Part shown: piece after piece, positions 6,281-9,241 of the stretch
Layout of the letters: each line of letters begins with the position of its first letter
How positions within the stretch are numbered: the stretch's first letter is position 1
From: a virus
Lineage: Duplodnaviria > Heunggongvirae > Uroviricota > Caudoviricetes
Length of the DNA stretch: 9,241 bases
Reading direction: 5' to 3' (one strand)
IMG/VR virus record: IMGVR_UViG_2585427789_000003
Location: 1 to 9,241 of that record
Notes under the pieces: model-generated
Seen by the model: only the letters and a program-made list of their open reading frames with translations
The model's database searches: none
What the model was told of the DNA's origin: nothing
Translations under genes and position numbers: made by a program

Positions 6281-6451
6281 ATGTTTGTCAAACCTGTTAA
6301 AGGGCGGTCAGTGCCTGACCCTGCCCGCGGCGACCTTTTGCCCGCCGAAGGGCGAAATGTTGACGAGAACAACTACTGGCTGCGCCGTGAAGCAGCGGGT
6401 GATATCCGGCGCGTGAATAAAAAGGTGAATACCGATGACGATAAGCTTTAA
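6281..6451 (+). CDS. Small conserved phage protein (56 aa), DUF2635-like, typically found just upstream of Mu-type tail sheath genes
   Basis: This ORF is absent from the supplied track because it is under 60 aa. ATG 6281 has GAGGA 5 nt upstream, and the stop TAA 6449-6451 overlaps the sheath start by 17 nt. The translation is MFVKPVKGRSVPDPARGDLLPAEGRNVDENNYWLRREAAGDIRRVNKKVNTDDDKL. I recall a short protein with this character immediately upstream of sheath genes in Mu-like tail modules. Confidence 0.55.
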   Translation: MFVKPVKGRSVPDPARGDLLPAEGRNVDENNYWLRREAAGDIRRVNKKVNTDDDKL

Positions 6452-7931
6452 CACCATTCCGTCGAATACGCTGGTTCCGTTGTTTTATGCGGAAATGGAT
6501 AACCAGGCGGCGAATACTGCACAGGACAGCGGAGCATCGCTGCTGATTGGTCATGCCAATAACGGTGCAGAGATTGTTGCCAACAGTCTGGTACTGATGC
6601 CGTCGGCAGACTATGCACGCCAGATTTGTGGTGTGGGAAGTCAGCTGGCGCGTATGGTCGAGGCTTATCGCCAGACTGACCCGTTTGGCGAGCTGTATGT
6701 GATTGCCGTTCCGGAAGCCACAGGCGCGGCGGCAACGGTTACGCTGACGGTGACCGGGGCGGCAACCGAAACCGGCACGGTGAATGTGTATGTGGGACGT
6801 ACCCGCGTGCAGGCACCGGTGACTAACGGCGATAACGTCACGATGATTGCCAGCAGTATCCAGGATGCCATCAATGCCGTTCCGACTCTGCCGTTTACGG
6901 CTTCATCTTCGGCAGGCGTGGTCACACTGACCGCGCGTCATAAGGGGCTTTGCGGGAATGAAATTCCTGTCAGCCTCAATTACTACGGCTTTGGTGGGGG
7001 CGAAGTGCTGCCAGCGGGCGTACAGATTGCCGTGGCGACGGGGACCGCCGGAACGGGCGCTCCGGTTCTCACCGGCGCGGTGGCTGCAATGGCGGATGAG
7101 CCGTTTGATTATATCGGCCTGCCGTTCAGCGACACGGCCTCCGTTAACACGCTGGTGACCGAGATGAACGATACCAGCGGTCGCTGGAGCTATGCGCGTC
7201 AGCTGTATGGTCATGTGTATACGGCAAAGATCGGCACACTGTCAGAACTGGTGAACGCAGGTGACCAGTTTAACCAGCAGCACATTACCCTGGCGGGGTA
7301 CGAAAAAGAAACCCAGACGCCTGCCGACGAGCTGGCAGCCAGCCGTACCGCCCGCGCGGCAGTGTTTATCCGCAACGATCCGGCACGTCCCACGCAGACC
7401 GGTGAGCTGGTGGGTATGCTGCCTGCGCCGAAGGGGAAACGGTTCACGATGACCGAGCAGCAGACCCTGCTGTCTCATGGCGTGGCAACGGCGTATGTCG
7501 AAAGCGGGGTGCTGCGCATTCAGCGTGATGTCACCACGTACAGGAAAAACGCTTACGGGGTTGCGGATAACAGCTACCTCGACAGCGAGACGCTGCATAC
7601 CAGCGCGTATGTACTGCGCAAACTGAAATCCGTCATTACCAGTAAGTACGGGCGTCACAAGCTTGCCAGTGACGGTACCCGCTTTGGTCCCGGTCAGGCG
7701 ATTGTCACCCCGGCGGTGATCAAAGGGGAACTGCTGGCAACCTACCGTCAGCTCGAGCGTGCGGGGATCGTGGAAAACTACGAACTGTTCAAGCAGTACC
7801 TGGTTGTGGAGCGTGATGCCAGCGATCCAAATCGCCTGAACACGCTGTTCCCGCCTGACTATGTTAACCAGTTGCGTGTCTTTGCCGTGGTTAACCAGTT
7901 CCGTCTTCAGTATTCAGAGGAGTCTGCATAA
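6435..7931 (+). CDS. Contractile tail sheath protein (Mu gpL-like)
   Basis: A 498-aa ORF with AAGGTG 7 nt upstream of ATG 6435. Its size is typical of Mu-type sheath proteins and it is immediately followed by a ~118-aa tube gene through a TAATG overlap. Confidence 0.85.
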   Translation: MTISFNTIPSNTLVPLFYAEMDNQAANTAQDSGASLLIGHANNGAEIVANSLVLMPSADYARQICGVGSQLARMVEAYRQTDPFGELYVIAVPEATGAAATVTLTVTGAATETGTVNVYVGRTRVQAPVTNGDNVTMIASSIQDAINAVPTLPFTASSSAGVVTLTARHKGLCGNEIPVSLNYYGFGGGEVLPAGVQIAVATGTAGTGAPVLTGAVAAMADEPFDYIGLPFSDTASVNTLVTEMNDTSGRWSYARQLYGHVYTAKIGTLSELVNAGDQFNQQHITLAGYEKETQTPADELAASRTARAAVFIRNDPARPTQTGELVGMLPAPKGKRFTMTEQQTLLSHGVATAYVESGVLRIQRDVTTYRKNAYGVADNSYLDSETLHTSAYVLRKLKSVITSKYGRHKLASDGTRFGPGQAIVTPAVIKGELLATYRQLERAGIVENYELFKQYLVVERDASDPNRLNTLFPPDYVNQLRVFAVVNQFRLQYSEESA

Positions 7932-8287
7932 TGGCCCGTATCGGGGGAACCTGTTATTTCAAAATTGACGGTCAGCAGCTATCGCTGACCGGCGGCATTG
8001 AGGTGCCCATGAACAGGACGGTCAATGATGACATCATCGGCCTGGACGGTTCAGTGGACCGCAAGGAAACTCACCGTGCGCCTTATGTCAAAGGGACCTT
8101 CAAGGTGCCGAAGAATTTTCCGGTGAGCAAAATCACCTCGTCTGATGAGATGACAATCACTGCCGAGCTGGCGAACGGTCAGGTCTATGTACTATCGTCT
8201 GCCTGGCTGCACGGCGAAGCGAACCATAATGCCGAAGAAGGCACGGTTGATCTTGAGTTCCACGGTGAAGAAGGGGATTACCAGTAA
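7931..8287 (+). CDS. Tail tube protein (Mu gpM-like)
   Basis: A 118-aa ORF whose start overlaps the sheath stop (TAATG at 7929-7933). It lies directly downstream of the sheath and upstream of the tail assembly chaperone, the canonical order for contractile tails. Confidence 0.8.
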   Translation: MARIGGTCYFKIDGQQLSLTGGIEVPMNRTVNDDIIGLDGSVDRKETHRAPYVKGTFKVPKNFPVSKITSSDEMTITAELANGQVYVLSSAWLHGEANHNAEEGTVDLEFHGEEGDYQ

Positions 8288-8556
8288 TGAAAGAGCTTGA
8301 GTTAAAGAAACCGATTACTGCTCATGGCGAGACACTCTCCGTACTGGAGTTTGATGAGCCCACCGGGAAGGATGTCCGCGAGCTGGGGTATCCCTACCAG
8401 ATGAATCAGGATGAGTCTGTCAGACTTCTGGCGCATGTGGTGTCGAAATACATTGTGCGGCTGGCGAAAGTGCCGCAAAGCTCTGTCGACCAGATGTCTC
8501 CGGCAGACCTGAATGCAGCGGCGTGGCTTGTGGCTGGTTTTTTCCTCCAGGCCTGA
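8287..8556 (+). CDS. Tail assembly chaperone, short (unshifted) product (gpG/gpE-like)
   Basis: An 89-aa ORF lying between the tube gene and the tape measure gene. It ends with GGT TTT TTC CTC CAG GCC TGA, which includes a slippery heptamer, and an overlapping ORF in the -1 frame runs to the tape measure start. Confidence 0.75.
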   Translation: MKELELKKPITAHGETLSVLEFDEPTGKDVRELGYPYQMNQDESVRLLAHVVSKYIVRLAKVPQSSVDQMSPADLNAAAWLVAGFFLQA

Positions 8557-8705
8557 CGGCTGAATACCTCACTGATCGCTTCTTTGACTGCGCCAGCTAC
8601 TGGCGCATTAATCCCTTCGAATTGCTGAATATGTCGATCAGTGAAATTCCCTTGCTGGTCAGTCAGGCAAACAGGATAGAGCAGGAGAAACGCACACATG
8701 GCTGA
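8287..8705 (+). CDS. Tail assembly chaperone, frameshift-extended product (gpGT/gpE+E'-like) made by a programmed -1 ribosomal frameshift
   Basis: The zero-frame ORF 8287-8556 and the -1-frame ORF that is open from 8523 to TGA 8703-8705 overlap across the heptamer T TTT TTC (8538-8544). The predicted fusion junction reads ...WLVAGFF/PPGLTAEY.... The conserved position between tube and tape measure genes matches the lambda G/GT and P2 E/E+E' paradigm. Confidence 0.6.
8538..8544 (+). other. Slippery heptanucleotide (T TTT TTC, X XXY YYZ type) for the -1 programmed frameshift
   Basis: Read directly from the sequence: zero-frame codons are GGT TTT TTC (8536-8544). The -1 frame stays open from here to 8705, whereas the zero frame stops 12 nt downstream at 8554-8556. 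Confidence 0.55.
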
Positions 8706-9241
8706 ATTTGAGCTTAAGGCGTTGATCACCGGTGTCGACAGGCTTTCTCCCGCGCTGTCGAAAATGCAAAAGAAAATCCGGGGATTTAAACGCCAGGCGG
8801 AAGATGCGTCACAGGGTGGGCTGGCGCTTGGTGGCGGACTGGCAGCGGGTTTGACGCTTTCCCTGAAATCTTATGCCGATCAGGAAAACGCCGCCACCGG
8901 GCTGAAAGTCGCCATGATGGATGCGAACGGCGAGATTGGAAAGCGCTTTCAGGACATCAATAAACTGGCTATTGGCCTGGGTAACCAGCTACCCGGTACA
9001 ACGGCTGATTTCCAGAACATGATGCAGATGCTGGTGCGTCAGGGGATCCCGGCAGAAAACATTCTTGGCGGTGTGGGTAAAGCGACAGCTTATCTTGCGG
9101 TACAACTGAAAAAAACACCGGAAGCGGCTGCCGAGTTTGCCGCAAAGATGCAGGATGCTACCGGAACGGCGTCAGAAGACATGATGGGGCTGTTCGACAC
9201 TATCCAGAAGGCGTTTTATCTGGGCGTTGACGATACCAACA
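8698..9241 (+). CDS. Tail tape measure protein, N-terminal part (3'-truncated by the window edge)
   Basis: ATG 8698 overlaps the stop of the frameshift product (ATGGCTGA). The frame is open with no stop for 181 codons to the window end. The translation (MAEFELKALITGVDRLSPALSKMQKKIRGFKRQAEDASQGG...) is helical and Ala/Gln/Lys-rich, typical of tape measure N-termini. It is missing from the supplied track, presumably because no stop codon falls inside the window. Confidence 0.8.
   Translation, partial: MAEFELKALITGVDRLSPALSKMQKKIRGFKRQAEDASQGGLALGGGLAAGLTLSLKSYADQENAATGLKVAMMDANGEIGKRFQDINKLAIGLGNQLPGTTADFQNMMQMLVRQGIPAENILGGVGKATAYLAVQLKKTPEAAAEFAAKMQDATGTASEDMMGLFDTIQKAFYLGVDDTN

What the first reader, a model, noticed from the sequence alone, without database searches (positions are those of the whole stretch)
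8287..8705. Programmed -1 ribosomal frameshift in the tail assembly chaperone gene
Two overlapping ORFs in the zero and -1 frames (8287-8556 and a -1 frame open from 8523 to 8705) share the canonical slippery heptamer T TTT TTC at 8538-8544. The zero frame stops 12 nt later. The -1 frame ends exactly where the tape measure gene begins. This is the conserved G/GT-type arrangement of tailed phages, and the track's 60-aa ORF at 8523-8705 is its C-terminal extension rather than an independent gene.
Basis: partly seen in the sequence, partly recalled or inferred. Interest (0 to 1): 0.5.

Follow-up and report, generated by a model that had tools for sequence, protein, structure and literature searches.

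The report
Frameshifted tail chaperone gene in prophage
This is the standard two-proteins-from-one-gene ribosomal frameshift that long-tailed phages use to build their tails, here in an SfV-like prophage where public annotations miss it; it is real but ordinary.

Summary
The window is the head/tail module of an SfV-like prophage (98.7% nt identity to Shigella phage SfV). Between the tail tube gene (7931-8287) and the tape measure gene (ATG 8698) lies an 89-codon tail assembly chaperone ORF (8287-8556, Pfam PF10109). An in-phase T_TTT_TTC sits at 8538-8544. A -1 frame runs on to 8705.

Comparison supports a programmed -1 frameshift giving a 139-aa fusion:
- All 20 distinct SfV-group relatives checked (70-100% aa identity) keep the heptamer in phase. 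So do 75 of 80 near-identical IMG/VR copies.
- Eight distant phages (31-45% identity) and P2 keep T_TTT_TTN at the same aligned residue. The preceding codon always ends in T, whatever amino acid it encodes.
- Wobble-position variation switches from frame 0 to frame -1 downstream of the site.
- 15 of 20 relatives have no start codon in the -1 frame upstream of the heptamer.
- The fusion aligns across the junction with P2 E+E', which its RefSeq record annotates as a -1 frameshift product.

No classical stimulatory structure was found, and efficiency is unknown. No record examined annotates the slippage.

One side observation may be new. A perfect 8-bp hairpin (8589-8607) inside the extension is invariant at all four synonymous stem sites in 19 of 20 relatives.

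The parts
7931..8287 (+). Tail tube gene (118 aa), immediately upstream. Its stop overlaps the chaperone ATG.
   Evidence: PF10618 Tail_tube E 2.4e-33; annotated as tail tube in SfV.
8287..8556 (+). Zero-frame tail assembly chaperone ORF (89 aa; counterpart of P2 E and lambda G).
   Evidence: PF10109 Phage_TAC_7 E 6e-16, 58.7 bits; phrog_166 'tail protein'; third-position variation dominates in frame 0 (43/26/147).
8538..8544 (+). Slippery heptamer T_TTT_TTC, in phase (GG[T TTT TTC]). Proposed site of tandem -1 slippage by two tRNA-Phe.
   Evidence: Sequence. Invariant in 16 unique SfV-group sequences, while the neighbouring third positions 8532 and 8535 take all four bases. T_TTT_TTN sits at the same aligned position in ST64B, phiP27, SfIV, F1055, BgVeeders33, DVM-2008, PG1, PBb002 and P2.
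8544..8705 (+). -1 frame extension (53 codons plus TGA; counterpart of P2 E' and lambda T). Together with 8287-8544 it encodes the 139-aa fusion.
   Evidence: Variation by codon position is 33/15/66 in the -1 frame for 8557-8697. Conserved motif [FY]W[RK]xNPxEL. phrog_32181 E 3e-40. hhalign to P2 E+E' spans the junction.
8589..8607 (+). Perfect 8-bp stem / 3-nt loop hairpin (TGCGCCAG CTA CTGGCGCA) inside the extension, 44 nt after the heptamer. Role unknown.
   Evidence: dG -14.2 kcal/mol, z -4.85. All four synonymous stem sites are invariant and the loop site varies. Lost in the Hamiltonella relative L109.
8683..8687 (+). AGGAG Shine-Dalgarno for the tape measure gene, lying within the extension's coding sequence.
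   Evidence: Sequence; GAGCAGGAGAA is conserved in most relatives.
8698..9241 (+). 5' part of the tape measure gene. It runs off the window and its start overlaps the -1 stop by 8 nt.
   Evidence: PF10145 PhageMin_Tail; phrog_28; same start as SfV orf14.

Best explanation
The gene at 8287 is the tail assembly chaperone of an SfV-like prophage, which has a Mu-type contractile tail.

Most ribosomes read 89 codons and stop at 8554-8556, making the short chaperone. A minority slip back one base when TTT (8539-8541) is in the P site and TTC (8542-8544) is in the A site. Both tRNA-Phe re-pair with TTT/TTT. These ribosomes continue in the -1 frame for 53 more codons to 8705, making a 139-aa fusion.

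By analogy with lambda G/GT and P2 E/E+E', the shared N-terminal domain coats the tape measure protein. The frameshift-only C-terminal domain recruits the tube subunit. The fixed slip frequency sets the ratio of the two products.

Shown here by sequence analysis:
- the genomic architecture;
- conservation of the slippery site;
- selection on the -1 reading frame;
- lack of an independent start in most relatives;
- homology to P2 E+E'.

Inferred only: that the slip occurs, its efficiency, and what each domain does.
For: 1. Position and family. The gene sits between the tube and tape measure genes and matches PF10109 at 58.7 bits.

2. Slippery-site conservation. T_TTT_TTC is in phase in 11 genome loci from different genera, 9 further metagenome or genome loci at 70-83% identity, and 75 of 80 IMG/VR copies. 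T_TTT_TTT/C/G lies at the same aligned residue in 8 phages at 31-45% identity and in P2.

3. First heptamer base. The codon before TTT ends in T in six different amino-acid contexts: GGT, CGT, AAT, AGT, CCT and GAT.

4. Frame switch in selection. Minimum substitutions by codon position are 43/26/147 in frame 0 for 8287-8537. For 8557-8697 they are 33/15/66 in frame -1. By my arithmetic the second set gives chi-square of about 35, df 2.

5. No independent start. 15 of 20 relatives have no ATG, GTG or TTG in the -1 frame between its upstream stop and the heptamer. No conserved start lies before the conserved motif. In the window, GTG 8523 has no Shine-Dalgarno upstream.

6. Narrow entry window. 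Combining the latest -1 opening among relatives (window position 8517) with the earliest zero-frame stop (8548-8550 in L110) limits entry to about 33 nt. The heptamer is the only in-phase T-run slippery motif there. Two relatives (L009, L014) also carry an adjoining in-phase GGGTTTT.

7. Homology to P2. A profile of 9 reconstructed fusions aligns with P2 E+E' over 123 columns through the junction, GFF against GFL (hhalign E 2.7e-5, probability 74%). P2 has GGT TTT TTG there, product sizes 91/142 aa against 89/139 aa, and the same 8-nt overlap with the tape measure start (PMC3091744).

8. Motif competence. U_UU.U_UU.C is frameshift-competent in E. coli: 0.12% alone, 0.89% with the IS911 stimulators and 7.6% with the IS3 pseudoknot, against a background of about 0.05% (PMC4066793 supplement).
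Against: - There is no direct evidence of the fusion protein for this phage group. I found no paper in the held library that states it for SfV.
- No stimulatory structure lies 5-9 nt downstream. The fold of 8545-8640 gives z -1.37, and 8545-8600 gives z +0.36. The alignment fold shows only a weak 3-bp stem there.
- No conserved upstream Shine-Dalgarno-like element is visible in the sequences aligned.
- The bare motif gave only about 0.1% in a reporter. This is far below lambda's roughly 30:1 G:GT product ratio and the 2-3-fold higher P2 frameshift efficiency quoted in PMC5009743. Context effects must therefore be assumed.
- Five of 80 IMG/VR copies have an altered site. Two have GGG TTT TTC, two carry an extra G that hard-fuses the frames, and one has GGGTTTTTTCTCC.
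- Paraburkholderia phage IPK has GGC TTC TTC at this spot, yet still has the -1 domain.
Confidence: 0.88

Rival explanations
1. The 60-aa ORF (GTG 8523 to 8705) is an independent small gene translated from its own start, as some records annotate it.
For: It is called as a separate 'hypothetical protein' in phage vB_EcoM-689R6 and in one NCBI assembly. It has its own PHROG, 32181. The window does have a GTG at 8523.
Against: There is no Shine-Dalgarno upstream of 8523 (ACCTGAATGCAGCGGC). 15 of 20 relatives have no start codon at all in the -1 frame upstream of the heptamer. The next starts lie downstream of the conserved, codon-periodic FDCASYWRINP region. In several relatives the -1 frame opens only 21-30 nt before the heptamer.
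Confidence: 0.03
2. The fusion is made by transcriptional slippage. RNA polymerase adds one extra U in the T6 run, giving an mRNA in which the two frames are joined.
For: A homopolymer run is the only conserved element, and no ribosomal stimulator was found. An inserted U would give the same protein. The review (PMC5009743) covers transcriptional slippage as a known alternative route to the same kind of product.
Against: From general knowledge, runs of 6-7 T are shorter than those on which bacterial RNA polymerase slips appreciably (about 9 or more). The homologous P2 site is annotated, and cited in PMC3091744, as a translational -1 frameshift. The motif is measurably shifty for ribosomes in E. 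coli. Sequence analysis alone cannot fully separate the two mechanisms.
Confidence: 0.05
3. After stopping at 8554-8556, ribosomes reinitiate in the -1 frame (termination-reinitiation) and make a separate E'-like peptide.
For: The stop is close to the overlap. The same operon shows tight coupling elsewhere (tube/chaperone ATGA-type overlap, and the E'/tape measure ATGGCTGA overlap).
Against: No start codon is conserved in the -1 frame near the stop. The first downstream ones in the window are TTG 8622 and ATG 8631, beyond the conserved motif. In the ST64B group the zero-frame stop lies 63 nt after the heptamer, inside the conserved -1 region.
Confidence: 0.02
4. The overlap is a chance or decaying arrangement in a defective prophage, and the -1 frame is not translated.
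For: The heptamer alone is expected about 0.18 times by chance. A few copies carry altered sites.
Against: There is clear -1 frame codon periodicity. The extension is conserved at protein level down to about 31-45% identity and aligns with P2 E'.
Confidence: 0.01

Closest known systems
Bacteriophage P2 E / E+E' tail chaperone frameshift (Christie et al. 2002; annotated in NC_001895)
   Same: - Same Pfam family for the N-terminal part (PF10109).
- Same gene position, before the tape measure gene.
- Slip site at the same aligned residue with the same GGT TTT TTN context.
- Near-identical product sizes (91/142 against 89/139 aa).
- Same 8-nt overlap of the E' stop with the tape measure start.
- The extension aligns with E' (hhalign E 2.7e-5).
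- No obvious downstream stimulator in either.
   Different: - The last base of the heptamer is C rather than G.
- The zero-frame stop is 9 nt after the heptamer, against 18 nt in P2.
- The extension does not reach the Pfam PF06528 (P2 GpE) model.
- Overall identity is only about 22%.
- The surrounding tail module is Mu-like, not P2-like.
- The SfV-type shift has not been tested experimentally.
Bacteriophage lambda G / GT (Levin, Hendrix & Casjens 1993; Xu, Hendrix & Duda 2004, 2013, 2014)
   Same: It has the same logic. The chaperone gene precedes the tape measure gene. A low-frequency -1 shift near the end of the first ORF adds a domain that recruits the tube or tail subunit. The ratio of products is fixed by recoding (PMC5009743).
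   Different: Lambda uses G_GGA_AAG, has a non-contractile tail, and belongs to a different sequence family. No detectable sequence similarity was sought or found here.
Bacteriophage Mu gp41 chaperone (-2 frameshift)
   Same: The neighbouring tail genes are closest to Mu (sheath L, tube M, DUF2635/gp38). The Pfam family is the same by name ('E, or 41 or 14').
   Different: Mu is reported to use a -2 shift (PMC2628397, PMC5009743). Here the +1/-2 frame is closed after 16 codons and only -1 is open. Mu gp41 is 144 aa.

Membership tests
G/GT-type tail assembly chaperone with programmed frameshift (Xu, Hendrix & Duda 2004) | The gene lies between the major tail/tube gene and the tape measure gene. 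| tested here: met
   Tube 7931-8287, chaperone 8287-8556, tape measure from 8698.
G/GT-type tail assembly chaperone with programmed frameshift (Xu, Hendrix & Duda 2004) | A second ORF overlaps the 3' end in another frame, runs to the tape measure gene, and lacks its own initiation signals. | tested here: met
   The -1 frame is open 8415-8705. GTG 8523 has no Shine-Dalgarno. 15 of 20 relatives have no start codon upstream of the heptamer.
G/GT-type tail assembly chaperone with programmed frameshift (Xu, Hendrix & Duda 2004) | An in-phase slippery sequence (X_XXY_YYZ) lies within the overlap. | tested here: met
   T_TTT_TTC at 8538-8544 is the only in-phase heptamer in the overlap.
G/GT-type tail assembly chaperone with programmed frameshift (Xu, Hendrix & Duda 2004) | The slippery site and the two-frame arrangement are conserved in relatives, and the second frame is under coding selection. 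| tested here: met
G/GT-type tail assembly chaperone with programmed frameshift (Xu, Hendrix & Duda 2004) | The fusion protein is produced at a low fixed fraction, and both products are needed for tail assembly. | not testable with these tools
   Needs proteomics, a reporter or genetics. No report for SfV-type phages was found in the held library.
P2 E / E+E' family (Pfam PF10109 + PF06528) | The N-terminal domain matches PF10109 Phage_TAC_7 above the gathering threshold. | tested here: met
   58.7 bits against 25. All 11 fusions tested match.
P2 E / E+E' family (Pfam PF10109 + PF06528) | The frameshift extension matches PF06528 Phage_P2_GpE. | tested here: not met
   No Pfam or NCBIfam hit even at E up to 10. 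Only P2 itself hits PF06528. Remote similarity does exist: hhalign against P2 E+E' covers the extension (E 2.7e-5, probability 74%), and pairwise BLASTP gives E 0.099.
P2 E / E+E' family (Pfam PF10109 + PF06528) | The slip site is T_TTT_TTG, preceded by a T-ending codon, near the end of E. | tested here: inconclusive
   The position and GGT context are the same, but the last base is C in the SfV group and T in the ST64B group. This is a functional equivalent, not an identical site.
Mu gp41-type (-2 frameshift) chaperone | The extension is encoded in the -2/+1 frame. | tested here: not met
   The +1 frame is open for only 16 codons (8513-8563). The extension is in -1.

The most novel reading that the evidence does not exclude
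The hairpin at 8589-8607 is a selected RNA (or DNA) element embedded in the frameshift-only coding region. All four synonymous stem positions are frozen in 19 of 20 SfV-group relatives, while the loop and the flanking wobble sites vary. P2-like phages fold to about -16 kcal/mol at the homologous codons.

It could tune the amount of fusion product or of tape measure protein. Possible routes are distal modulation of frameshifting, pausing of shifted ribosomes, or mRNA processing or stability. That would add a previously undescribed cis-element to a system usually described as needing only the slippery sequence.
Probability: 0.2. Interest if true: 0.45.

Novelty: new member of a known kind. Interest (0 to 1): 0.2.

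Why it matters
This is mainly an annotation matter. The cassette is present at 95% identity or more in 918 of 5426 complete E. coli genomes, and in SfV, SfI, SfII and related phages.

None of the SfV-group records examined marks the slippage. SfV RefSeq, a PGAP-annotated E. coli chromosome, EPP-1 and AH07 leave about 141 nt between chaperone and tape measure unannotated, and vB_EcoM-689R6 calls a spurious 60-aa 'hypothetical protein' there. More distant relatives leave similar gaps of roughly 85-140 nt. The extension has no Pfam or NCBIfam model, and its PHROG is labelled 'unknown function'.

Recognising it as the E'-equivalent domain would correct many records. It would also link the Mu-like tail module of SfV-type phages to the P2-type (-1) rather than the Mu-type (-2) recoding solution. 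Biologically it is an expected instance of a well-known mechanism.

Tried and rejected
- **Downstream stimulator.** I folded 8545-8640 and 8545-8600, did the same for nine relatives and P2, and ran RNAalifold on 11 sequences. Nothing significant lies within the 5-9 nt spacer range.
- **Upstream Shine-Dalgarno-like stimulator.** The codons before the heptamer vary freely among relatives, so none is conserved.
- **Rfam scan of 8200-8800.** There was no relevant hit.
- **Promoter and terminator scan of 7800-9241.** Nothing was found on the + strand.
- **Inverted repeat 8675-8690 / 8744-8759.** This could have masked the tape measure Shine-Dalgarno. It is not conserved in 14 relatives and gives z -1.66, so I rejected it.
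- **AlphaFold2 of the fusion.** The 96%-identical proxy P0001 gave mean pLDDT 48, which is too poor for a fold search.
- **PDB sequence search with the profile.** No relatives were found.
- **'Fused' database proteins P0001-P0006.** These looked like natural in-frame fusions. On alignment they contain several frame changes and are assembly noise, so I did not use them as evidence.
- **The search for related loci with the diverse alignment.** It failed for lack of a conserved block.
- **Is the hairpin thermodynamically unusual?** It is not. About 20 sites in the 9.2-kb window fold as well in 34-nt windows. Only its synonymous-site conservation stands out.
- **Literature.** I found no paper in the held library that states the frameshift for SfV, SfI, SfII or ST64B. 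The SfV genome paper and Christie 2002 are not held. I therefore could not check whether Xu et al. 2004 listed SfV.

Full report
**What the window is.** A megablast of 7900-9241 finds Shigella phage SfV at 98.7% identity, and SfI, SfII and two E. coli phages at 98.2-98.5%. The ORF map and Pfam give the usual order. A 498-aa sheath gene (6435-7931) is followed by a 118-aa tube gene (7931-8287, PF10618). Next comes an 89-aa ORF (8287-8556, PF10109 'Phage tail assembly chaperone proteins, E, or 41 or 14', 58.7 bits against a cut-off of 25). A tape measure gene then starts at ATG 8698 (PF10145). This is the Mu-like contractile-tail module of an SfV-type prophage.

**Checking the observation.** The zero-frame reading is GCT GGT TTT TTC CTC CAG GCC TGA.
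- T_TTT_TTC at 8538-8544 is therefore in the X_XXY_YYZ phase, and the stop codon ends 12 nt later.
- The -1 frame is open from 8415 to TGA 8703-8705. Its first start-like codon is GTG 8523.
- The predicted fusion reads ...VAGFFPPGLTAEY... and is 139 aa long.
- The -1 stop overlaps the tape measure ATG by 8 nt (ATGGCTGA).
- The +1/-2 frame is closed after 16 codons.
- By my arithmetic, a heptamer of this form is expected about 0.18 times by chance in the 142-nt overlap. The case therefore rests on comparison with relatives.

**Conservation of the heptamer among close relatives.**
- Eleven loci from different genera carry the chaperone at 76-100% aa identity: Edwardsiella, Shigella, Buttiauxella, Citrobacter, Atlantibacter, Scandinavium, Kluyvera and Pantoea. 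All have TTTTTTC in phase and a -1 ORF ending at the same place.
- Nine more loci at 70-83% identity do too. They include a Hamiltonella relative and one with CGT instead of GGT.
- Among 16 unique sequences, positions 8538-8546 never vary. The neighbouring wobble positions 8532 and 8535 take all four bases.
- Of 80 near-identical IMG/VR copies, 75 keep GGTTTTTTC. Two have GGG TTT TTC. Two, both from taxon ids of similar number (2585427747 and 2585427730), carry an extra G that fuses the frames. One has GGGTTTTTTCTCC.

**Conservation in distant relatives.** I searched the phage collection with the fusion by tblastn. ST64B, phiP27, SfIV and F1055 match in two pieces over the whole fusion at about 40% identity.
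- In ST64B, phiP27, SfIV, F1055, Burkholderia BgVeeders33, Pseudomonas DVM-2008 and PG1, and Bordetella PBb002, a T_TTT_TTT/C/G heptamer lies in phase at the same aligned residue. The -1 frame reaches the tape measure start.
- The codon before TTT is GGT, CGT, AAT, AGT, CCT or GAT. The amino acid changes, but the third base stays T, as tandem slippage requires.
- Every one of these records leaves an unannotated gap of 85-140 nt before the tape measure gene.

**Is the -1 frame translated?**
- Minimum substitutions by codon position are 43/26/147 in frame 0 for 8287-8537. They are 33/15/66 in frame -1 for 8557-8697. The wobble signal moves to the -1 frame exactly where the model predicts.
- The extension is conserved at protein level, with the motif [FY]W[RK]xNPxEL.
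- 15 of 20 relatives have no ATG, GTG or TTG in the -1 frame between its upstream stop and the heptamer. The next starts lie beyond the conserved motif.
- Taking the latest -1 opening and the earliest zero-frame stop among relatives, entry into the -1 frame must occur between about 8517 and 8550. In the window the heptamer is the only in-phase slippery motif there; two relatives also have an adjoining in-phase GGGTTTT.
- This excludes an independent 60-aa gene and termination-reinitiation.

**Relation to known systems.**
- P2's RefSeq record annotates E (91 aa) and E+E' (142 aa, joined, '-1 translational frameshift').
- P2 reads GTC GGT TTT TTG. This is the same GGT TTT TTN at the homologous residue (GFL against GFF). 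Its E' stop overlaps T by the same 8 nt.
- A profile of nine reconstructed SfV, ST64B and Pseudomonas fusions aligns with P2 E+E' over 123 columns through the junction (hhalign E 2.7e-5, probability 74%). Pairwise BLASTP is marginal (E 0.099).
- All fusions hit PF10109. Only P2 hits PF06528 (GpE).
- The window's extension has no Pfam or NCBIfam hit. Its only match is PHROG 32181, 'unknown function'.
- Mu, whose sheath and tube are the closest named relatives, is reported to use a -2 shift (PMC2628397, PMC5009743).
- So this element works like P2 E/E+E' and is a remote member of that family. It sits inside a Mu-like tail module.

**Mechanism and its limits.**
- Sharma et al. (PMC4066793) class U_UU.U_UU.C among the shift-prone motifs in E. 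coli. Their supplement gives 0.121% without a stimulator, 0.893% with the IS911 stimulators and 7.58% with the IS3 pseudoknot. UUUUUUU gives 0.33/0.45/10.2%, and UUUUUUG gives 0.118/0.247% for the first two conditions (the third value was cut off in the passage fetched).
- I found no structure at a functional distance, no conserved upstream Shine-Dalgarno, and no Rfam match.
- P2 and its relatives are likewise described as lacking a stimulator (PMC3091744). Yet they are said to shift 2-3 times more efficiently than lambda (PMC5009743).
- The efficiency here is therefore unknown. It probably depends on context not visible to these tools.
- Transcriptional slippage on T6 would give the same protein and cannot be excluded from sequence. 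I rate it unlikely.

**Side observation: a hairpin in the extension.**
- A perfect 8-bp hairpin, TGCGCCAG-CTA-CTGGCGCA, lies at 8589-8607 (dG -14.2 kcal/mol, z -4.85). It covers the codons C-A-S-Y-W-R-I of the extension, 44 nt after the heptamer.
- In the 16-sequence table, the four synonymous sites in the stem (TGC, GCC, TAC, CGC) never vary. The one in the loop (AGC/AGT) does, and so do nearly all flanking wobble sites. The same stem codons are unchanged in 19 of the 20 SfV-group sequences examined.
- Eight of about 45 degenerate codons are invariant. By my arithmetic, the chance that the four stem sites are among them is about 5e-4.
- The hairpin is lost in the Hamiltonella relative. It is absent from the ST64B group.
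- P2-like phages fold to about -16 kcal/mol at the homologous codons. There the protein is so conserved that this proves little.
- Hairpins of this stability are not rare in the window, with about 20 sites.
- It is too far downstream to be a classical stimulator. Its role, if any, is open.

**Verdict.** This is a new, unannotated member of a well-known kind. Interest is low, apart from the annotation gap and the unexplained hairpin.

Noticed in passing
window 8589-8607: A perfect 8-bp/3-nt-loop hairpin (TGCGCCAG CTA CTGGCGCA) lies inside the -1 extension. All four synonymous stem sites are invariant in 19 of 20 SfV-group relatives, while the loop and the flanking wobble sites vary. It sits 44 nt after the heptamer, too far for a classical stimulator.
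   Followed up: partly
L027 (P2) about 1745-1778; L115-L119 at the homologous codons MADxAVIFHWPPS: P2-like phages fold to about -16 to -17 kcal/mol at the codons homologous to the SfV-group hairpin. This is 59 nt after their heptamer, just beyond the 60 bp earlier authors screened. The protein is too conserved there to judge selection on RNA.
   Followed up: partly
L081, L087, L029, L030 and one other IMG/VR locus (around locus positions 950-960): Five of 80 near-identical copies have an altered slip site. Two have the synonymous change GGG TTT TTC, which loses the first T. Two have an extra G that hard-fuses the two frames; they carry similar IMG taxon numbers, so this may be a homopolymer sequencing error. 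One has GGGTTTTTTCTCC.
   Followed up: no
L022 (Paraburkholderia phage IPK) 1180-1200: This relative has GGC TTC TTC instead of the T-run. Its -1 frame opens only 9 nt before the zero-frame stop (GAG GGC GCG TAA), yet it encodes the conserved E' motif (LAHFWNVSP). It either uses a different shift site or the record, marked UNVERIFIED, has an error.
   Followed up: no
window 8557-8697, and the same stretch in public records: There is an annotation gap. SfV RefSeq, a PGAP-annotated E. coli chromosome, EPP-1, AH07, ST64B, phiP27 and SfIV all leave this stretch uncalled, and vB_EcoM-689R6 labels it 'hypothetical protein'. None of the SfV-type or related records examined marks ribosomal slippage. 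The cassette occurs in 918 of 5426 complete E. coli genomes.
   Followed up: yes
proteins P0001-P0006 from the protein database: Apparent single-frame 'fusion' chaperones of 107-139 aa are singletons, all but one on contigs of a few kb or less, with several internal frame changes. They are assembly or sequencing noise, not natural fusions.
   Followed up: yes
window 8675-8690 / 8744-8759: A 16-nt imperfect inverted repeat pairs the tape measure Shine-Dalgarno region with codons 16-21 of the tape measure gene. The window folds at -32.9 kcal/mol (z -1.66), but the pairing is not conserved in 14 relatives.
   Followed up: yes
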